Part shown: positions 49,993 to 63,371 of the stretch, piece by piece | Layout of the letters: each line of letters opens with the position of its first letter | How positions within the stretch are numbered: the stretch's first letter is position 1 | Origin: an uncultured Desulfovibrionaceae bacterium | Lineage (GTDB): Bacteria; Desulfobacterota; Desulfovibrionia; Desulfovibrionales; Desulfomicrobiaceae | Direction of reading: 5' to 3' | NCBI GenBank assembly: GCA_964589645.1 | Contig: CAZPSN010000005.1 | Span: forward strand, 18,865 to 82,864 | Length of the DNA stretch: 64,000 nucleotides | Position numbers and translations under genes: made by a program | The notes under the pieces: model-generated | Told to the model about the DNA's origin: nothing | The model's input: the letters and a program-made list of their open reading frames with translations, nothing else | The model's database searches: none

Positions 49993-50637
49993 CTAGGAAA
50001 GGCCCTTGGCTTGATTGATGGATATATTGAACGCAACTGAAAAAATATGGTGCATGAAATCAACGTATTCAATCGATACATTGTCAGGCGCGGAAATCCG
50101 GGCCGGCGCGAAGTTGACAATACCACGGACCCCGGCCTCGACCAGATAATTCGCAGCTCGTTGAGCCCGCTCGGGAGGAGTGGTGATAATGCCGATTTCG
50201 ATGTTGAGTTCGTGGACCTTCTCCTTGAGTCGCCGCGAGCACACGACTTCAAGACCCGCCACTTCCTCGCCAATCTTGAACGGGTCGCAATCAAAGGCCC
50301 CAACCAGAATGAAGCCCCGGCGACGGAAGATGCCGTGGCGCAAGAGGGCTCGCCCCAGATTCCCGACCCCGACCAGGGCCACGTTCCATGTCCGATCTAT
50401 CCCTAACGACTGCTTGATGGCCGTCAACAGATCCTGGACATAGTACCCCACCCCGCGCACACCAAACTCCCCGAAATATGCAAGATCCTTTCGAATCTGC
50501 GACGGATTAACGCCACAAGCCCGAGCCAGTCCATCTGAGGAAATGACCGTGTCGCCATCCTGGAGGAGCGCCTCCAGGACCTGGACATAAACAGCCAATC
50601 GCTGAATCGTGGCACGGGGTATATGGGCGCTTTTCAA
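49993..50637 (-). CDS. rex: Redox-sensing transcriptional repressor Rex
   Basis: IPRATIQRL, QIRKDLAYFGEFGVRGVGY, GVGNLG, NFAP. Confidence 0.96.
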   Translation of the reverse strand: MKSAHIPRATIQRLAVYVQVLEALLQDGDTVISSDGLARACGVNPSQIRKDLAYFGEFGVRGVGYYVQDLLTAIKQSLGIDRTWNVALVGVGNLGRALLRHGIFRRRGFILVGAFDCDPFKIGEEVAGLEVVCSRRLKEKVHELNIEIGIITTPPERAQRAANYLVEAGVRGIVNFAPARISAPDNVSIEYVDFMHHIFSVAFNISINQAKGLS

Positions 50638-50657
50638 GATATCTCCAAACCGAAACT

Positions 50658-50675
50658 TCGTGATCTATTTCACTT
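50658..50675. promoter_or_regulatory. Rex operator upstream of rex
   Basis: TCGTGATCTATTTCACTT has the GTGA-N6-TCAC core of the Rex consensus TTGTGAA-N4-TTCACAA. Confidence 0.7.
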
Positions 50676-50684
50676 TAGAACTGC

Positions 50685-50714
50685 AAAAAAAAGGGGAGGA
50701 CGCGCCTCCCCTTT
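50685..50714 (-). terminator. Intrinsic terminator after atpE
   Basis: GGGGAGG-CGCGT-CCTCCCC followed by T8. Confidence 0.8.
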
Positions 50715-50728
50715 CCGTGATCAAACAA

Positions 50729-51052
50729 TTAGCCAACAAAGGGGTTGGCGAAGAGCAGGATCAGGTTGACGACCAGAGCGTAGATGGCCAGAGATTCGAT
50801 CATGGCCAAGCCGATCAGCATGGTGACGGTGATCTTGCCAGAAGCCTCGGGGTTGCGGGCCGTGCCTTCGCAAGCGGCCTTCAGGCCCAGGCCCTGAGCG
50901 ATACCACAACCGGCGGCGGCGATAGCCATGCCAAGAGCGGCAGCCCAAGAGATGGTGGAGATGACTTCGGGAGCGGCCTCAGCAGCGAAAGCGCAAGAAG
51001 CGACAGCTACCAGAGCGACAGTGGCCAGTACGGACAGAAAACTCTTACCCAT
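50729..51052 (-). CDS. atpE: ATP synthase F0 subunit c with N-terminal leader
   Basis: GGAGG RBS before ATG 51052; [20 protein letters not shown]. Confidence 0.95.
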
Positions 51053-51110
51053 GATACAAAATCCTCCTACACGTATAATGATTAGTGGTCGGTTGACCAT
51101 TTCCCCCGAA

Positions 51111-51815
51111 TTAATGAGCTTCCTCAAACGCGCCCTTCAGATACAGCATGGACAGCATGAAGAAGACAAAAGCCTGGATAACGTCGGCCAGCATGAACAG
51201 AAAATACATCGGAACCGTGGAAACGATCGGGGCCAACATGAACAGAAGGGCCAAAACGATATCTTCACCGCGGATGTTTCCAAAAAGCCGCAAAGACAAC
51301 GACAGCATGCGCGCAAAATGACCGATGACTTCGATCGGAAACATAAGCGGAGCCATCCACAGCATCGGCCCCGTAAAATGATGGATATAGTGTGCGCCGT
51401 GCAGTTTGATGCCCCAATACTGGTAATACACGAAGACGAACACCGCCATGGAAGCAGTCGTGTTGATGTTCGCCGTGGGAGCGTCGTTGCCCGGGAACAA
51501 GCCGCCCAGGTTACACGTCAGGATGTAGATGAAGAGCGTCGCCAAAACGGGAAACACTTTCCGACCGTCCTCGCCCATGTTCGCAACCACGAAGTCTTCC
51601 AGACCGCCGATCAGTAACTCAAAAAAATTCTGCAATCCTCTCGGGACCAGAGCAATCTTCTTTGTGGCCATGACCGCGACGAAAATCAGGATGATCATGA
51701 ATGTCCAGGAGTAGAGGACATTACCTGGTATCAGACTCCCGCCATGCTCATTGACAAGGCCTACGGCCTTGACCGCTTCCTCAACGAGAAAAATTGGATG
51801 TAAACCCCCTGCCAT
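51111..51815 (-). CDS. atpB: ATP synthase F0 subunit a
   Basis: [27 protein letters not shown]. Confidence 0.96.
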
Positions 51816-51818
51816 GTG

Positions 51819-52235
51819 TTATGCCTCCTTAGAAGTTTTCCCCAAAACTTGTATCATTCCCCAAAGCAAAATATTGATCAAGACGGTGGAGAATCCCATC
51901 AGCAACCACGTTGCCGAGGATCCGTGCATCACAACCAGCGCATAGAACGCAACGGCCGTAAGCGCGAGCCGCCCGTAAAAACTGAACATTTGAACCGCGA
52001 CAGCGCCCTTTTGCACATACACGAGTTCCTGGATCACCCGGCCCAGAGCCAGAAAGTTGAGGGTTCCCAACAACACGCCGGCCGCAAAATCCACTCCGCG
52101 AGGCCCACAGACCAGGGCCAGAAGTGCGCACAAAAGAAAACAGACCTGTTGCGCCGCCATCTTGCGCACCTCGGGGACGTGAAACCCCCGCCCATACAAC
52201 GTCCGTTCAATTCGCTTGGTCATCGTCCGGAGCAT
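51819..52235 (-). CDS. atpI: ATP synthase subunit I
   Basis: Four hydrophobic segments, directly upstream of atpB. Start is 52235 or 52223. Confidence 0.8.
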   Translation of the reverse strand: MLRTMTKRIERTLYGRGFHVPEVRKMAAQQVCFLLCALLALVCGPRGVDFAAGVLLGTLNFLALGRVIQELVYVQKGAVAVQMFSFYGRLALTAVAFYALVVMHGSSATWLLMGFSTVLINILLWGMIQVLGKTSKEA

Positions 52236-52470
52236 CCGCTTCCGCCTCTTTTTTCTGAATGCGCTGCATTTCCCGAAACATGTTTTTATAACCGGCAAGG
52301 ATGCCGAGAATCAGAAAAATCAGCATCAGCCATGGCTTGGTGCCAAAGAACTTGTCCAGGTAAAACCCCATCACCATGCCCACGATCACTCCGGACACGA
52401 GATGGATACCCATCATGGATGCAAGGCCCAATGATTGAAAATGTTTGTTTTTTTTTCTGCTAAAAAACAT
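52207..52470 (-). CDS. AtpZ/AtpI-family small membrane protein
   Basis: GFYLDKFFGTKPW motif between two TM helices; first gene of the F0 operon. Confidence 0.85.
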   Translation of the reverse strand: MFFSRKKNKHFQSLGLASMMGIHLVSGVIVGMVMGFYLDKFFGTKPWLMLIFLILGILAGYKNMFREMQRIQKKEAEADAPDDDQAN

Positions 52471-52505
52471 CGGGCCAACTTGGGTGGGCCAGCTGGCCCA
52501 TTCAT

Positions 52506-52523
52506 TCGTGCAATAAATCACAA
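52506..52523. promoter_or_regulatory. Rex operator upstream of the F0 operon
   Basis: Minus strand TTGTGATTTATTGCACGA, a close match to TTGTGAA-N4-TTCACAA. Confidence 0.72.
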
Positions 52524-52735
52524 ATCGAAGTCGGGGCTACCATACGCCCCAACTTCGCGTCAATCAAAGATTTCACCAAAACAGATTTCTTCGACCAAAA
52601 CCGCCGTGCCTTAACCTTGCAACAGCCCTCCGCATCGGGCGCAATCCCTGGACCGCTTGCCAGCCGCACCCAATCGAACTATGCCCGACTCGGAAATCAA
52701 CAACACGGGCCGCCAAGCTGGCCTCTCGAGCACCC

Positions 52736-55174
52736 ATGAAAAATCATTCCTCCCTCAAGATACGTCATCTCACCATTGAACCGAATCCGCGCAAGGTCCT
52801 GCGCAGTTCGGACATCCGCGATGAATCCAACCCCATTTGCCTGTTCCAGCCCCGGGCACGGAAGGCCCTGGAAATGGGGCTTTCTATCGCTAGCATGGAA
52901 TACCACGTCTATGTCGCAGGCGAGCCCGGACTTGGCCGCACCTATCTCGTCGAAAACTTCCTGCTGCCCCGCGCCAGGAGCGGCATCACGCCACCGGACT
53001 TGGTTTACCTGAACAATTTCGACAACCCGGACAAGCCCGTCCTGGTCAGCCTGCCCGCCGGGCAGGGCCGGATTCTCAAAGACAATCTCCAGCGCGTCGT
53101 GAAGCGCCTGCGCCGCGATCTGCCTCGTCACTTCGAGCAGGCCAGCTACGTGCGACTTCAGAACAAACTGTTCACCAAGCTGGCGGTCACCCGCGACGAC
53201 CTCATGGACAGGATGGAGCAGGTTGCCCAAAAAAAAGGGTTTAGTCTGAACATTGACGATAGCGGCTCCGTGTCTCTGACCCCCTTGGTGGACGGCAAAG
53301 TCCTCACCTCGGAAGAATTTGAACGACTTGAAAATACACATAAAAAAGTGCTCAAGGATCAAAGCAGCGCGGTACTCAACACCATCGCCGATCTTTCACG
53401 ACTGGTCTCCAAAAGTGAGCAGGAATTCCGCACCAAAGAGGTCATGCTCGCACAGGAGCATGCCGCGGGGCTTGTCGACCGCGTACTTGCGCCGATCCGC
53501 AAGAAGTTTGCCGTAAGCAAAGTACTGAAATCCTATTTTGATGCACTCAAAGAGGACATTCTCGAAAACCTCGCACATTACCAGGGACGCCAGGAGCGCG
53601 AGCAACGCAACACGCCCGACAATCAGCCCGAAGGCCTCTCTGACTCTTTTTTCCAGCGCTATGACGTCAACCTTTTTGTAGACAATTCAGACGTGACCGG
53701 CGCGCCAGTGGTCAAGGAAGTCAACCCCGGCTTCTTCAACCTGCTTGGCTGCGTGGAACGCGAGACGGAGTGGGGCACCTATTATACGGATTTTTCCCTG
53801 ATAAAGGCCGGAGCCGTGCACCGCGCAAACGGAGGATTTCTTATCCTGCGCGTGGATGATCTGCTCGGCCATCCAGCTGCCTGGGAAGGGCTGCTGCGCT
53901 GTCTGCGCAGCAGGCATTCGAGCCTGGATGACCCGACTGACCACTATGACATCCTGCGCACCAGAACCATTCGACCAGATCCCATCGCGCTCGACCTCAA
54001 GGTTATCCTCATTGGCGACGACGAGACTTATGAGCTCTTGTATATGCACGACGAGCGATTCCGGAAAATCTTCAAACTCAAGGCCCACATCCAGGATACC
54101 GTCGAACGCACGACCCAGTCCATCACCGGGTACGCCCAGGCTTTGGACCGCGCGGCCCGCGAGAGTGGCCTGCGCAGCCTGACCAAGGACGCCTACGCCG
54201 AACTCGTGGATTACTCCACCCGCATGGCCGAGGATCGTGAACGTCTGTCCCTGCACTTCTCGCACTTGCGAGAAATCATGATCGAATCCAGCGCTATCGC
54301 GACCAGTCAAGACAAGCGGACCATTGACGCCGGCATCGTCAAGACCGCCCTGGCCGAGCGTGAATACAGAACCAACCTGTACCAGGAGGAGTTTTTGCGC
54401 GAGTATGACCGCAGATCCATCAAGGTCCGCACCCAGGGCCAGGGGGTCGGCGTGGCCAACGGCCTGTCCGTTACGCAGGTCGGAGACTACGTCATGGGTC
54501 TGCCCCACCAAATATCCTGCACCGTCGGAGTCGGGCACGGTGGCATCATGGATCTGGAGCGGGAAGCCGAGCTGGGCGGCCCAATCCATACCAAAGGGAT
54601 GATGATCCTGAAGAGCTACTTTGTGAATCTTTTTGCGCGCAACAAGCCGCTGGTGCTGACCGGCAGCCTATGTTTCGAGCAGAGCTACGCCCAGGTCGAC
54701 GGGGATTCGGCCTCCGGCGCAGAGTTGGCGGCCCTCTTGTCCGCCCTTTCCAACGTGCCGATTCGCCTTGACCTGGCCTTCACCGGAGCCATTTCCCAAT
54801 CCGGAGCCATCATGGCTGTTGGTGGCGTCACCCACAAAGTAGAAGGTTTTTTTGAGGTCTGTCGCAGAAGGGGTCTCACCGGCCGCCAGGGCGTGCTTCT
54901 GCCGCGGGATAATATCGTGCACTTGGTACTGCGCGACAATGTGCTGCAGGCGATCAAGGATGGGCAATTCCATATTCATCCCGTGAGCACCATCGAGGAA
55001 GCCATGGAGATTCTGACCGGAATGCGGGCCGGCGAACGACTTAAGGATGGCCGTTTTTCGTCAAAATCCATCTATGCCGCCGTGGATGAACGACTGTCGG
55101 AACTTGCCGTTTTGGCCGACAAGAAATGCACGATGCCCCGACGTAAGAAGGATGCAAAAAAGCCCGGATCCTGA
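52736..55174 (+). CDS. Lon-like protease (LonC/YcbZ-type AAA-like plus S16 domain)
   Basis: Degenerate Walker A GEPGLGRT, GAVHRANGG, FEQSY..VDGDSAS (catalytic Ser), VGGVTHKVEGFF (catalytic Lys). Confidence 0.9.
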   Translation: MKNHSSLKIRHLTIEPNPRKVLRSSDIRDESNPICLFQPRARKALEMGLSIASMEYHVYVAGEPGLGRTYLVENFLLPRARSGITPPDLVYLNNFDNPDKPVLVSLPAGQGRILKDNLQRVVKRLRRDLPRHFEQASYVRLQNKLFTKLAVTRDDLMDRMEQVAQKKGFSLNIDDSGSVSLTPLVDGKVLTSEEFERLENTHKKVLKDQSSAVLNTIADLSRLVSKSEQEFRTKEVMLAQEHAAGLVDRVLAPIRKKFAVSKVLKSYFDALKEDILENLAHYQGRQEREQRNTPDNQPEGLSDSFFQRYDVNLFVDNSDVTGAPVVKEVNPGFFNLLGCVERETEWGTYYTDFSLIKAGAVHRANGGFLILRVDDLLGHPAAWEGLLRCLRSRHSSLDDPTDHYDILRTRTIRPDPIALDLKVILIGDDETYELLYMHDERFRKIFKLKAHIQDTVERTTQSITGYAQALDRAARESGLRSLTKDAYAELVDYSTRMAEDRERLSLHFSHLREIMIESSAIATSQDKRTIDAGIVKTALAEREYRTNLYQEEFLREYDRRSIKVRTQGQGVGVANGLSVTQVGDYVMGLPHQISCTVGVGHGGIMDLEREAELGGPIHTKGMMILKSYFVNLFARNKPLVLTGSLCFEQSYAQVDGDSASGAELAALLSALSNVPIRLDLAFTGAISQSGAIMAVGGVTHKVEGFFEVCRRRGLTGRQGVLLPRDNIVHLVLRDNVLQAIKDGQFHIHPVSTIEEAMEILTGMRAGERLKDGRFSSKSIYAAVDERLSELAVLADKKCTMPRRKKDAKKPGS

Positions 55175-55229: not shown

Positions 55230-56537
55230 TCAGCGCGGGAGCAATCCAGGATTTTTCTCTCCCATGCTGCCAAACAGACCGGCCGCCGCCCGCTCATAAG
55301 CCGAGAGGGCCCCGTTGAGGCTGGCTTCAGCCTGGGTCTGCGCGGCCTGCGCATTCAGTACGTCCGTATTCGTGCCGACCTGTGCTTCGTACCTAGCCAC
55401 AGCCATGCGATAGCTCTCTTTGGCAGCCACAAGCCCCTGCTTGGCCGCGGCAATCCGTTTTTCAGCCTCTTGAATCTGTAAAAAATTCTTTTTCACTTCG
55501 AACGAGGCCTCGTTCTCCAGATTCTGATATTCTTGAGCCAGACGAGACACATTCTTCCGCGCCCTTTTCTCACCAAAATACGTCTTTCCCCACTCGAAAA
55601 ATGTCCACTTCATGCCAACCTGAGCGCTCCAATCACTGGGGGTGTGATACCGTCCGCCTTGAACAAACGCGTCTTCGCCTTCACGAACATAATTGAAGTC
55701 CGCTCCGACTTGCGGGTAGTACGGCACTGCGGCCAGAACCACATCCTTTTCGGCAACCATCACTGTCTGGCGGGCAATGCGCAGGTCTGGACGATTCTGC
55801 AACGCCCGCTGCAAACAATCCTCCAGGGTCAACGACAACGGAAAATACTCCAGGGCACCCACATATTCAACGTCTGCCCCCACATTCATACCGATGAGAG
55901 TATTGAGTTGCGCGGCAAATGTGTCCACGCTGTTCTTTGCGGCGAGCAGGAACTGCTCGGCCGTGGCCACATCCACTTCAGCTTGAAGCATGTCGAGTTT
56001 GGGACGCAGCCCAACGTCATAAAAAGCGGAATTGACTTTCAACTGAGAACGCAGACGAACCAGCGAGTCTTCCGCGGATCGCACATTCTCGCGGGCTTGC
56101 AACAGCTGCAAAAACACATCCTGAATGGCGATGGTCAATTGCAGTTCAGCGTTGTCAATCTGCGATGCGGCCTGTTCTTTCTCCAGCAGGGCCTTCTCAT
56201 GGCTGGTCAGCAGATTGAACCCGGTGAAAAGCGGCTGATGCACATTGAAACTCAATTCCCAATTGTCCCGAGTGCCTGCGTTCTGTCCAAAAGCCTGCGG
56301 ACGTTCGTCCAGACGGACATAGCCATATTGGGTACTCACAGCCGGACCAAAAGCAGCCTTGGCCGCCTTGACCGCGTAATCCGATGCCACAAGCGCCTCC
56401 CGCGCGGCAAGAATGGACGGATTGGATCGGAGCCCAGCTTCCACCGCATCCTTCATGGTCAGCGTCTCCGCCGCCAAGCCCGAACAGGCCCCAAAAAAGA
56501 AAATGAATCCGGCCACGACAATTCGCGATATGTTCAT
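55230..56537 (-). CDS. TolC-family outer membrane efflux protein
   Basis: Signal peptide and two OEP repeats (QPLFTG, YDVG...DMLQA, RYEAQVGTNTDVL); GGAG RBS before ATG 56537. Confidence 0.9.
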   Translation of the reverse strand: MNISRIVVAGFIFFFGACSGLAAETLTMKDAVEAGLRSNPSILAAREALVASDYAVKAAKAAFGPAVSTQYGYVRLDERPQAFGQNAGTRDNWELSFNVHQPLFTGFNLLTSHEKALLEKEQAASQIDNAELQLTIAIQDVFLQLLQARENVRSAEDSLVRLRSQLKVNSAFYDVGLRPKLDMLQAEVDVATAEQFLLAAKNSVDTFAAQLNTLIGMNVGADVEYVGALEYFPLSLTLEDCLQRALQNRPDLRIARQTVMVAEKDVVLAAVPYYPQVGADFNYVREGEDAFVQGGRYHTPSDWSAQVGMKWTFFEWGKTYFGEKRARKNVSRLAQEYQNLENEASFEVKKNFLQIQEAEKRIAAAKQGLVAAKESYRMAVARYEAQVGTNTDVLNAQAAQTQAEASLNGALSAYERAAAGLFGSMGEKNPGLLPR

Positions 56538-56661
56538 AATGATTTGCTCCATGATCATGGGTATGGGGAAGCGAACGATCAACCAGCCTTGTTTACTCCC
56601 CTCCGAGCCAAAAGGCCACCCCTACGCGGATGTCCAGCCCCGGGGGTGCGTGGAAAAGAGC

Positions 56662-56690
56662 TTGAAGTCAAGACAGTACTACCCTATAGT
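56662..56690 (+). promoter_or_regulatory. Putative sigma70 promoter for the small ORF and tRNA-Arg
   Basis: TTGAAG-N17-TATAGT. Confidence 0.55.
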
Positions 56691-56725
56691 TATTGACAAG
56701 ATCATCAACCACGAGGAGGCATCCC

Positions 56726-56824
56726 ATGTTCTCTGGTCTCATTCTCGGCCTTGGCTTGAGCATTATTGGCCTGATCGTGTTCTTTTTGCATAAAGAACAC
56801 GGCCCCGATAAGCATCATCACTAA
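56726..56824 (+). CDS. Unannotated 32-aa single-TM peptide with His-rich C-terminus
   Basis: GAGGAGG RBS 6 nt before the ATG; reads MFSGLILGLGLSIIGLIVFFLHKEHGPDKHHH then stop. Confidence 0.7.
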   Translation: MFSGLILGLGLSIIGLIVFFLHKEHGPDKHHH

Positions 56825-56833
56825 TCCTCAACT

Positions 56834-56910
56834 CCGCCCTTAGCTCAGCTGGATAGAGTAGCGGACTTCGAATCCGTTGGTCGCATGTTCGAATCATGCA
56901 GGGCGGGCCA
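56834..56910 (+). tRNA. tRNA-Arg (TCG)
   Basis: CCGCCCT/AGGGCGG acceptor stem, D-arm AGCTCAGCTGGATAGAG, anticodon loop CTTCGAA, GTTCGAATC, GCCA end. Confidence 0.93.
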
Positions 56911-57040: not shown

Positions 57041-57116
57041 GCCGGGGTAGCTCAGTCGGTAGAGCAGGGGACTGAAAATCCCCGTGTCGGCAGTTCAACT
57101 CTGTCCCCCGGCACCA
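57041..57116 (+). tRNA. tRNA-Phe (GAA)
   Basis: GCCGGGG/CCCCGGC acceptor stem, loop CTGAAAA, ACCA end; 76 nt. Confidence 0.96.
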
Positions 57117-57124
57117 GAGAAGCC

Positions 57125-57158
57125 AAGGGCTTACGAATTAATTCGTAAGCCCTTTTTT
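57125..57158 (+). terminator. Terminator after tRNA-Phe (may be bidirectional)
   Basis: Perfect palindrome AAGGGCTTACGAAT-TA-ATTCGTAAGCCCTT followed by a T-run. Confidence 0.85.
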
Positions 57159-57225
57159 CTTTCCGGCTCGGTTTTGTCCCTATCCGACCCATCCTTTTGG
57201 AGATTGGCGGCCGCTCCGCCAACGG

Positions 57226-61398: not shown

Positions 61399-62523
61399 AT
61401 GGAAGAAAAAACCGGTGTAGCGAAGTATCTGGGCATCATGCCTGGCCTGGCCATCATGATCGGCACCCTGTTTCTGCTGCGCACCTATGTGGAACCCTGG
61501 ATGAAGGACGCTGTTGTCTTCGGGCAGAAAGGCTGGCTGGTCCAGGTGTTAAGCCTGAACTACATCCTGTTGTCCATCATCGCGGGCATCATCTACCGCA
61601 ACGTATTCTTCGGCGGGCGCATCCCCGACTGGGCTGAGGCGGGCTTCCGCACCACGCGACTGTTCATCAAGTCCGGCGTCATCATGCTGGGCTGCCTCTA
61701 CACCCTGCAAAAGCTGGCCAAGGTGGGCGGCATCGCCATCGCCCTCATCTCGCTCTTTGTGTTCGGCACCGTTCTCTTTGTCATCTGGTACGGCAAGCGC
61801 ATCGGCATGGACCGCTCCATGATCGGCGTAATGGCCGCGGCCACCGGCGTGTGCGGCGTGTCAGCCGCCGTGGCCACCAGCCCCGGCGTCAAGGCCAAGC
61901 CTTCTGAGGTTGCGCTGGCCATTGCCACCATCCTGGGATTTGGCATCATGACCATGTTCATCAGCCCCTTCATCGGCAAGGCGCTATCCATGAGCGACTA
62001 CCAGTTCGGCGCATGGGTGGGCACCGGCATCCTGAATTCCGGCCAGGTGCTGGCCACCTGCCTGGCCTTCAACCCCACCTTTGCTCCGGGCACCGCCGTG
62101 GCTTATGGCGAGATATGGAACGTGGTGCGCGTCATCTCCATTCCCTTCGTTGTGTTCATCATCACCACGTGGGCATGCAAGTCCGAGGCCGCAGAGAGCT
62201 GCGCCACAGGGACCCAGATGAGCCTGGCCAAAGTGTTCAAGGACCGCTTCCCGGTCTTCGTCCTGGGCTTTTTCGGCATGACGGCATTGTCGTCGCTGGG
62301 CTGGCTGGGCGCGGAGGGCTCCAACACTCTGCACCTGCTGCGCGACGTCATGAGCTGGATCTTCGGCATCGGCCTGGTGGGCCAGGGTGCCTACATCGAC
62401 TTCCGCGAACTCAAGACCGCAGGTGGCAAGCCGCTCAAGGTTGGCCTGGTCGCGGGCACGCTCAAGTACGTCGTGGCCCTCATCGTTGTCATGTCATTCG
62501 TGTCCAAGGACGCGAGCTTCTAA
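61399..62523 (+). CDS. YeiH-family (putative sulfate exporter, PSE) membrane transporter
   Basis: About 10 TM helices; TGVCGVSAAVA, FGAWVGTGI..SGQV, FPVFVLGF, GGKPL motifs; AAGGAG RBS. Confidence 0.85.
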   Translation: MEEKTGVAKYLGIMPGLAIMIGTLFLLRTYVEPWMKDAVVFGQKGWLVQVLSLNYILLSIIAGIIYRNVFFGGRIPDWAEAGFRTTRLFIKSGVIMLGCLYTLQKLAKVGGIAIALISLFVFGTVLFVIWYGKRIGMDRSMIGVMAAATGVCGVSAAVATSPGVKAKPSEVALAIATILGFGIMTMFISPFIGKALSMSDYQFGAWVGTGILNSGQVLATCLAFNPTFAPGTAVAYGEIWNVVRVISIPFVVFIITTWACKSEAAESCATGTQMSLAKVFKDRFPVFVLGFFGMTALSSLGWLGAEGSNTLHLLRDVMSWIFGIGLVGQGAYIDFRELKTAGGKPLKVGLVAGTLKYVVALIVVMSFVSKDASF

Positions 62524-62535
62524 CCGGAGGACCCC

Positions 62536-62928
62536 ATGTCTACAAAAGGAAAGATGACTGTCTTTAAGACTGACCGCCACGAAGATGCGGCGGCCATGAT
62601 ATTCGTCGCCCTCGTCACGGCGGCCGTGTTGCTGTACATGGCCTTCATCGTGCCCACCATCACCATCACCCCGGCCCAGGATGGCAAGCTTGTGGCACTG
62701 AAGGTGTTGCCCGACCAGGAGATCAAGAAGGGCGACCTGATGTACACCTTTGAGTACAAGGACAAAAAGTTCGTGGACGGCAAGCTTGAGGAAAAGCTGG
62801 CCACCAAGGACGTGAAGGCCTCCACCAATGGCAAGGTGCTGTCCGTCGGGGTCAAGGAGGGCGACGCGTTGAAGAAGGGCAAGACTGCGATTCTGGTCAT
62901 GGATCACGAAAAGGGAACTTTGCCGTAA
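62536..62928 (+). CDS. Membrane-anchored protein with biotinyl/lipoyl-like (barrel-sandwich hybrid) domain
   Basis: GGAGG RBS; one TM helix; two lipoyl half-motifs (PAQDGKLVALKVLPDQEIKKGDLM and ASTNGKVLSVGVKEGDALKKG). Confidence 0.8.
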   Translation: MSTKGKMTVFKTDRHEDAAAMIFVALVTAAVLLYMAFIVPTITITPAQDGKLVALKVLPDQEIKKGDLMYTFEYKDKKFVDGKLEEKLATKDVKASTNGKVLSVGVKEGDALKKGKTAILVMDHEKGTLP

Positions 62929-63371
62929 TGAAGATCCTGCTTGCCTTGGATGATTCGGTCCGGACTATGGACGAGGCCGTCAGGCTCGCCTCCGAGAGGG
63001 GCGCGGGCCTGACGGCTCTATTTGTCCTCGACGCCGGCTGGAGCGTGTTCATCGGCTCGGACTTTCTGCTGGGCAGCCACGCCAGGGGAGACTTCCTTGA
63101 ATACACGCGCGACGACGAACTGACCCAGGAGCGTGCTACGGTGGCCGCCTTCGAGGAGCGCGCCCGCGCCGCGAACCTGCCCGTCGAGGTCAGGAGCGTG
63201 GCCAGCGGCCGAGTTACCGAGGCCATCCTGAATGAACTGAAGGAAGGCGCCTACGACACGCTTGTCATGAGCCTACCCTTCCGCCGGGGCCTGGAGGTGG
63301 TGCGCGACGCACCATCTGCAATCCTCAAGGCCGCAGCCTGCGATATACTTTTCGTACGGCGCGAGGCCTAA
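62928..63371 (+). CDS. Universal stress protein (USP)
   Basis: MKILLALDDS start, G....AIL, DTLVM, ILKAAACDILFVR end; TAATG overlap with the previous gene. Confidence 0.88.
   Translation: MKILLALDDSVRTMDEAVRLASERGAGLTALFVLDAGWSVFIGSDFLLGSHARGDFLEYTRDDELTQERATVAAFEERARAANLPVEVRSVASGRVTEAILNELKEGAYDTLVMSLPFRRGLEVVRDAPSAILKAAACDILFVRREA

What the first reader, a model, noticed from the sequence alone, without database searches (positions are those of the whole stretch)
56712..56824. Hidden 32-aa membrane micro-protein with a His-rich tail, 9 nt upstream of tRNA-Arg and divergent from tolC
Seen: a strong RBS (GAGGAGG), ATG, a 21-residue hydrophobic Gly-rich helix and the tail HKEHGPDKHHH (5 His in 11 residues), preceded by TTGAAG-N17-TATAGT. 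It is below the ORF-track cutoff. Inference: a real small protein, possibly metal-binding (Ni/Co/Zn/Cu) or an accessory subunit of a membrane complex in the manner of AcrZ or CydX, probably co-transcribed with the tRNA.
Basis: partly seen in the sequence, partly recalled or inferred. Interest (0 to 1): 0.7.

Follow-up and report, generated by a model that had tools for sequence, protein, structure and literature searches.

The report
Tiny conserved membrane protein of Desulfomicrobium
This 32-amino-acid gene is conserved under selection across five families of sulfate-reducing bacteria; it encodes a predicted single membrane helix that likely clamps onto a larger, still unidentified membrane protein, and its histidine tail is a local variation, not the conserved part.

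Summary
The gene is real. The ORF (56726-56824, +), RBS, promoter and 9-nt gap to tRNA-Arg(UCG) are as described. Same-genus copies show strong purifying selection (pN/pS 0.18). Copies were found in 67 of 401 genomes of the order, in five families. None was found in 294 genomes of the largest family or elsewhere in a 301-genome phylum sample. It matches no Pfam, NCBIfam or PDB family; one ortholog is already called 'uncharacterized' in UniProt.

The metal-binding reading is weak. The His-rich tail occurs in 21 of 31 loci of the window's family but in 0 of 22 loci of three other families. What is conserved is G4, G26, an E-H-G-(P) cap and one face of the helix.

The neighbours are not fixed either: tolC and tRNA-Arg in two families, mgtE and pcm in two others. 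It is not CydX, AcrZ, MgtS or KdpF, and it does not co-occur with cytochrome bd, heme-copper oxidase, this TolC or PiT.

Best reading: a stand-alone, dispensable accessory helix of a common inner-membrane protein, partner unknown. It is a new small-protein family of a known kind.

The parts
56662..56690 (+). sigma-70-type promoter, TTGAAG-17-TATAGT
   Evidence: CTTGAAGTC and TAT invariant in 11 of 11 aligned same-genus upstream regions while the spacer varies (11 of 22 genus loci aligned)
56713..56719 (+). ribosome binding site GAGGAGG, 6 nt before ATG
   Evidence: a purine-rich SD and an ATG start in 67 of 67 family loci
56726..56824 (+). 32-aa single-helix membrane protein gene: helix 3-25, conserved G4, G15, E24-H25-G26-P27, variable tail 28-32
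56834..56910 (+). tRNA-Arg(UCG), the only one of this anticodon in the assembly; likely second cistron of the same transcript
   Evidence: follows the gene in 20 of 31 f1 and 8 of 14 f3 loci, 0 of 22 others
57041..57116 (+). tRNA-Phe(GAA)
57125..57160 (+). intrinsic terminator (13-bp stem, T run)
55230..56537 (-). divergent TolC-family outer-membrane protein gene (neighbour, not an obligate partner)
   Evidence: adjacency; co-occurrence

Best explanation
This is a gene under purifying selection for a 29-35-residue protein, predicted to form one inner-membrane helix that likely works as an accessory subunit, packing one conserved face against a larger, common membrane protein that is not yet identified. 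Shown: frame, RBS, promoter and length are conserved; invariant positions (G4, G15, L7/L11/L18, H/N/Q22, H25, G26) cluster on one helix face; the gene moves between loci on its own and has been lost several times. Inferred: it is made from its own sigma-70 promoter (here ahead of tRNA-Arg); the small glycines let it pack closely on a partner helix; the E-H-G-P cap ends the helix at the membrane surface and makes a polar contact; it stabilises or tunes the partner rather than being essential. The His-rich tail is a lineage-specific end with no family-wide role. Topology and partner are untested.
For: Selection: pN 0.133 vs pS 0.740 (ratio 0.18) over 21 same-genus copies, with no stop in 22 of 22; the other five frames give 0.33-6.8 and stops in 5-22 of 22. 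Spread: 67 of 401 order genomes after removing 5 chance hits and adding G098. ATG plus SD in 67 of 67 loci; 64 of 67 are 29-34 aa. AlphaFold2 gives one helix, residues 3-25, pLDDT 88.5. Column entropy has 100-degree periodicity, permutation p 0.008 for positions 4-26 and 0.005 for 4-22. G4 and G26 are 53/53, E24 and H25 49/53. Neighbours change by lineage. It is kept in a 1.6-Mb genome (G029) and where the tRNA has decayed (L035, L036, L038). Clean syntenic losses: G116, G073, G077 and three g17 genomes. Single-helix small proteins that stabilise or tune transporters and oxidases are the established class (PMC12648545 and PMC10710835, passages read).
Against: No partner was identified. Five candidates fail co-occurrence or are absent: CydA, heme-copper oxidase, this TolC and PiT and KdpA. 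RND pumps are too universal to inform (69 of 70). One-face conservation would also fit self-association. E-H-G-P may be only a helix cap. Three g18 genomes keep the gene with EHG replaced, so the motif is not indispensable. The sequences are related, so the periodicity p-value is overstated. There is no expression evidence.
Confidence: 0.55

Rival explanations
1. MgtS-like regulator of the Mg2+ channel MgtE (a specific form of the accessory-helix idea): it binds the MgtE membrane domain and protects or tunes it.
For: mgtE lies directly upstream on the same strand in 6 of 19 f2 and 2 of 2 f7 loci. One of 53 members hits Pfam MgtS-like at E 0.077. E. coli MgtS scores 6.0 bits on the family profile, reached by 2 of 300 shuffles, the best of five small proteins tried.
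Against: Profile comparison with MgtS gives probability 2.8%; the MgtS model scores a member 11 bits against a cut-off of 27. G028 (one contig, 100% complete) and G088 have the gene but no MgtE match. Seven of 14 genomes with the close MgtE clade have no copy found. pcm (18 of 19 f2 loci) is a steadier neighbour than mgtE. The window genome keeps mgtE near pcm without the small gene, and it has no close MgtA (28-30% identity).
Confidence: 0.1
2. AcrZ-like subunit of an RND efflux pump that uses the divergent TolC.
For: tolC is divergent within 700 nt in 25 of 31 f1 and 9 of 14 f3 loci. In some f3 loci tolC is followed by adaptor and AcrB-family genes. RND pumps are present in 37 of 38 carriers.
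Against: The TolC ortholog (E below 1e-85) is in only 19 of 38 carriers but in 18 of 29 non-carriers. Adjacency is 0 of 22 in f2, f7 and f8. AcrZ scores at shuffle level (78 of 300). RND pumps are in 29 of 29 non-carriers too.
Confidence: 0.1
3. Membrane-anchored metal binder (Ni/Co/Zn/Cu) working through its His-rich tail.
For: 5 His in the last 11 residues, against 0 of 2369 longer RBS-led ORFs of this genome. Two or more His after EHG in 21 of 31 f1 loci. H25 is nearly invariant and changes only to D or E. A cation-efflux gene lies next to two relocated copies.
Against: Two or more His after EHG in only 3 of 14 f3 loci and 0 of 22 f2/f7/f8 loci; tails there are acidic or basic, and one same-genus copy ends in basic residues. 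Position 22 is His in 23 of 53. Another small membrane ORF of this genome also ends in HHH.
Confidence: 0.08
4. Self-associating helix that forms a small homo-oligomer (channel, proton leak or scaffold) without a large partner.
For: Gly-rich conserved face; stand-alone gene with no partner gene that tracks it.
Against: There is no polar residue in the helix core that would line a pore, and the G-x3-G spacing of the window copy is in only 5 of 53 members.
Confidence: 0.1
5. The ORF is a leader whose translation controls tRNA-Arg(UCG), or the stretch is a structured RNA.
For: It lies 9 nt before the tRNA, with that spacing kept across the genus.
Against: No Arg codon in the window copy; any Arg codon in 6 of 67 and CGA/CGG in 3 of 67. 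The gene persists without the tRNA (0 of 22 f2/f7/f8 loci have it) and the tRNA persists without the gene. The consensus RNA fold is only -3.4 kcal/mol, and Rfam finds only the tRNAs. Amino acids, not bases, are conserved.
Confidence: 0.03
6. CydX/CcoQ-like oxidase subunit, or a type I toxin.
For: Right size; the window copy has G8-x15-E24 spacing like the second half of the CydX motif. Scattered weak FixQ, FixS and Fst hits, E 0.02-0.11, in 1-3 of 53 members.
Against: The CydX Tyr and Trp are absent and it is not behind cydB. CydA is not found in 11 of 38 carriers; heme-copper oxidase is in only 6 of 38. It is single copy in all but 2 fragmented assemblies, with no phage or plasmid match.
Confidence: 0.04

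Closest known systems
MgtS (YneM), E. coli, 31 aa; Pfam PF22865
   Same: Same size, one helix, stand-alone gene; MgtS binds and stabilises or tunes transporters (MgtA, PitA; PMC10710835 passages). Faint sequence likeness.
   Different: No significant homology; no EHG cap in the MgtS model match; no close MgtA in this genome; no co-occurrence with PiT.
AcrZ, E. coli, 49 aa
   Same: Single helix, encoded apart from its pump; the window gene faces a tolC.
   Different: Longer, no sequence likeness; the TolC ortholog does not track the gene.
CydX (motif YxxWxxGx15E/D, PMC4325964 passages), CydH, CioY
   Same: About 30-37 aa, hydrophobic helix ending in an acidic residue.
   Different: No Tyr/Trp, Gly at that position in only 5 of 53, not in the cydAB operon, and kept where cydA is not found.
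KdpF, 29 aa
   Same: Size and N-terminal Gly; one member hits TIGR02115 at E 0.22.
   Different: No KdpA in this genome and shuffle-level score; not in a kdp operon.
UniProt C7LU78_DESBD / ACU90876.1 (Desulfomicrobium baculatum, uncharacterized)
   Same: Ortholog, 78% identical, same locus layout.
   Different: Only a gene call; the accessions occur in 0 papers of the library.

Membership tests
Bacterial small single-pass membrane proteins (class) | 50 aa or fewer, own RBS and start, frame under purifying selection | tested here: met
Bacterial small single-pass membrane proteins (class) | one hydrophobic helix long enough to span the membrane | tested here: met
   (prediction)
Bacterial small single-pass membrane proteins (class) | translated and membrane-located in vivo; binds a larger membrane protein | not testable with these tools
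   needs Ribo-seq, tagging and pull-down
CydX | YxxWxxGx15E/D motif | tested here: not met
   motif; Tyr and Trp positions are F and L here, Gly in 5 of 53
CydX | encoded behind cydB and co-occurring with cydA | tested here: not met
   cydAB is on contig C8; CydA not found in 11 of 38 carriers
MgtS | match to PF22865 over the cut-off, or profile homology | tested here: not met
MgtS | MgtA or PitA target present | tested here: not met
   no close MgtA; PiT in 22 of 38 carriers and 22 of 29 non-carriers, only a partial match in the window genome
AcrZ | sequence match to AcrZ | tested here: not met
   no AcrZ family among Pfam/NCBIfam hits; 78 of 300 shuffles score as well
AcrZ | binds the RND transmembrane domain | not tested
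   RND present in 69 of 70 genomes, uninformative
KdpF | first gene of kdpFABC; KdpA present | tested here: not met
   no KdpA or KdpC hit in the window genome
CcoQ/FixS (cbb3 oxidase) | heme-copper oxidase present, family match | tested here: not met
   COX1 in 6 of 38 carriers; hits only at E 0.02-0.04
His-rich metal-binding peptide | His cluster conserved across the family | tested here: not met
   21/31 f1, 3/14 f3, 0/19 f2, 0/2 f7, 0/1 f8
Type I toxin | antisense RNA, multicopy or mobile location | tested here: not met
   an undescribed antisense RNA is not excluded

The most novel reading that the evidence does not exclude
The family is a small-protein regulator of the MgtE magnesium channel, an MgtS analogue that arose independently. 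Its older home was directly behind mgtE (still so in 8 loci of two families), and it later moved in front of tRNA-Arg. Its E-H-G cap would sit at the channel's membrane surface. The review passages read list only a rhomboid protease as a protein regulator of MgtE (PMC10710835).
Probability: 0.1. Interest if true: 0.7.

Novelty: new member of a known kind. Interest (0 to 1): 0.38.

Why it matters
It defines a small-protein family with no Pfam or NCBIfam model, in sulfate reducers whose small proteins are barely studied (searches list 3 and 2 papers, none on this topic by title or abstract start). The family has a clear signature and natural knock-outs (G116, G073, G077, G011, most of g17) as well as natural motif variants (g18). 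These make the partner findable by co-loss analysis or one pull-down. If the partner is MgtE or a core energy-conserving complex, it would add a new regulator or subunit to a well-studied machine. As it stands it is an uncharacterised accessory helix of a familiar kind.

Tried and rejected
Family scans: Pfam and NCBIfam on 22 and then 53 members gave no hit over any cut-off; the weak hits are generic membrane helices.

Structure and remote homology: PDB by sequence gave 0 matches at E 10 for the profile and for two single members. Foldseek gave 2 meaningless hits at E 9.5. ESM Atlas best scores were 0.79 and 0.76, chance level. The profile search of 1.84 billion representatives gave 25 hits: 24 family-like and 1 chance repeat protein. 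A 995-aa cluster-mate looked like a possible fusion but is a GlnE with no alignment to the small protein.

Weak genome hits: five f6 hits (G123, G193, G243, G299, G392), G104 and four phylum hits were read and are chance. Seven other weak f6 hits and two in f2/f3 were not read; they vanish with the broader profile.

Co-occurrence with CydA, COX1, TolC, PiT, RND and MgtE gave no tracking partner.

Not obtained: no RNA holder was listed. [quoted passage not shown] The named-organism genome scan could not take so short a query, so family names other than the genus stay inferred.

Earlier findings of this scan: nothing relevant. Papers: searches found no description of this gene; the library lacks most subscription papers, and no supplements were read.

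Full report
1. Observation. The window carries GAGGAGG at 56713-56719, ATG at 56726 and a 32-codon frame ending at 56824. ARAGORN places tRNA-Arg(TCG) at 56834-56910 and tRNA-Phe at 57041-57116. A sigma-70-type site TTGAAG-17-TATAGT is at 56662-56690 and a terminator at 57125-57154. The divergent gene is an OEP/TolC-family protein. Markov resamples of the intergenic region gave an RBS-led membrane-grade ORF in 3 of 5000 trials.

2. Organism. The copy in a same-genus genome (G024) is identical to records from Desulfomicrobium, including ACU90876.1 / UniProt C7LU78_DESBD, 'uncharacterized protein'. So the window is from Desulfomicrobium, and the gene has been called before but never described in the papers searched. 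Family and order names are recalled taxonomy, not tool output: f1 is taken as Desulfomicrobiaceae, the order as Desulfovibrionales, and f6 presumably as Desulfovibrionaceae.

3. It is a protein-coding gene under selection. Against 21 same-genus copies (codons 2-28), pS is 0.740 and pN 0.133, ratio 0.18. None of 22 sequences has a stop in this frame, whereas the other five frames have stops in 5 to 22 of 22 and ratios of 0.33 to 6.8. Differences by codon position are 191/85/418 over 27 family copies. These copies are related and not independent, but the contrast is large. All 67 loci examined have ATG and an SD-like stretch. The -35 and -10 boxes are invariant in 11 of 11 aligned upstream regions (11 of 22 genus loci). 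One unaligned copy has a one-base change in the -35 box and four relocated copies have other upstream sequence. There is no conserved RNA fold (-3.4 kcal/mol).

4. Range. A 53-sequence profile matched 71 of 401 genomes of the order at E 0.02. Five of these are chance on reading (G104, G123, G193, G299, G392), and G098 was added by synteny, giving 67. By family: f1 30 of 34 plus the window genome, f2 18 of 31, f3 15 of 27, f7 2 of 2, f8 1 of 1, f4 0 of 2, f5 0 of 9, f6 0 of 294. In a 301-genome phylum sample only the two f1 genomes were real; four weak hits were chance. One f4 contig ends 182 nt after mgtE, so absence there is open. No phage or plasmid match was found. The 1.84-billion-protein search gave 25 hits, 24 of them family-like.

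5. Anatomy. AlphaFold2 predicts a single helix, residues 3-25 (pLDDT 88.5). In the 53-sequence alignment G4 and G26 are invariant, E24 and H25 are 49 of 53, position 15 is G or A, and position 22 is H, N, Q or Y. That alignment left out near-duplicates and the EHG-less variant. Column entropy is periodic at 100 degrees, p 0.008: one face is conserved and the other is free, as expected for a helix that packs on a partner and faces lipid on the other side (inference). EHG is present in 61 of 67 loci. Two or more His after it occur in 21 of 31 f1, 3 of 14 f3, 0 of 19 f2, 0 of 2 f7 and 0 of 1 f8 loci; most other tails are acidic. The His tail is unusual within this genome (0 of 2369 longer ORFs match it), so a genus-level role is possible, but it is not the family's function. 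All three g18 genomes keep a 27-29-aa version before tRNA-Arg in which EHG is replaced. Charges do not settle the topology.

6. Neighbourhood. There are two layouts. In f1 and f3, tolC is divergent (25 of 31; 9 of 14) and tRNA-Arg(UCG) follows (20 of 31; 8 of 14). In f2 and f7, pcm follows (18 of 19 within 700 nt; about 850 nt in both f7 loci), then uvrC, cheX and cheY in f2, and mgtE precedes (6 of 19; 2 of 2). The common element is a stand-alone gene at the head of a transcript. The gene survives decay of the tRNA (L035, L036, L038). The tRNA survives loss of the gene (G116, G073, G077, G011). In three g17 genomes an unrelated gene pair fills the mgtE-pcm gap. The gene is therefore selected for itself but dispensable.

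7. Partner tests. The panel had 70 genomes: 38 carriers, 3 variant carriers and 29 with no copy found. CydA was in 27 of 38 and 17 of 29. Heme-copper oxidase was in 6 of 38 and 5 of 29. The TolC ortholog was in 19 of 38 and 18 of 29. PiT was in 22 of 38 and 22 of 29. RND pumps were in 37 of 38 and 29 of 29. MgtE was found in 75 of 80 genomes but not in carriers G028 (closed) and G088. The window genome has no KdpA and no close MgtA. Many panel genomes are drafts and kin are not independent, so these counts exclude obligate partners only. A complex prediction with MgtE could not be run, so binding is untested.

8. Comparison with known families. No Pfam, NCBIfam or PDB family matches. CydX needs YxxWxxGx15E/D and sits behind cydB (PMC4325964, passages): not met. 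MgtS is the nearest look-alike, but it has hhalign probability 2.8% and 11 bits against a cut-off of 27. It scores 6.0 bits on the family profile, reached by 2 of 300 shuffles, one of five proteins tried. AcrZ, KdpF and CydX score at shuffle level (78, 57 and 24 of 300). The class it works like, single-helix small proteins that stabilise or tune transporters and oxidases, is described in PMC12648545 and PMC10710835 (passages read). That review also notes that such helices can be structural equivalents without sequence likeness, so failing membership does not exclude a like function. Other papers were seen only as search listings.

9. Verdict. This is a real, previously called but undescribed small membrane protein family, confined to one branch of the order. 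It is most likely a dispensable accessory helix of a common inner-membrane protein (0.55). MgtE (0.1) and an RND pump (0.1) are the named candidates not excluded; self-association gets 0.1 and metal binding by the His tail 0.08. Novelty: new member of a known kind. Interest 0.38.

Noticed in passing
L117:3993-4073 (-), L167 near G069:C82:20638-20694 (-), L195:1379-1465 (+): All three g18 genomes carry a 27-29-aa variant of the gene before tRNA-Arg(UCG) in which the EHG cap is replaced by a Leu-Lys-Leu stretch; a natural motif-swap subfamily.
   Followed up: partly
L035, L036, L038 just after the stop codon: tRNA-Arg(UCG) has decayed to a short remnant in three same-genus genomes while the small gene, its promoter and tRNA-Phe stay intact.
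   Followed up: partly
L082:2691-3782: A phage integrase gene follows tRNA-Arg(UCG) in G043, so this tRNA is likely an integration site.
   Followed up: no
window 56606-56617 and 56646-56661: Two further conserved non-coding motifs between tolC and the small gene (AAAAGGCCACCC-like, and TTGTGAnGAAAAG just upstream of the -35 box) in 11 aligned genomes; possible tolC promoter or regulator site, not identified.
   Followed up: no
G000:C22:7498-7641 (+) and 13 other sites: The genome has 15 RBS-led 24-50-aa ORFs with a membrane-grade helix; one other (47 aa) also ends in HHH and has no NCBIfam match.
   Followed up: partly
window 49993-55174: Rex-like regulator and ATP synthase F0 genes (labels recalled from sequence) on the minus strand, then a LonC-type AAA protein; the Lon-tolC-small gene order recurs in several f3 loci.
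   Followed up: no
window 61399-63371: YeiH-family membrane protein, a 130-aa membrane-anchored biotin/lipoyl-like protein and a Usp protein in a row, divergent from a Tll0287-domain sensor kinase and sigma-54 regulator.
   Followed up: no
L172 (G048:C7:14196-17612) and L149, L150: In three g17 genomes a nucleotidyltransferase/HEPN-like gene pair (label by eye) sits between mgtE and pcm where relatives have the small gene.
   Followed up: partly
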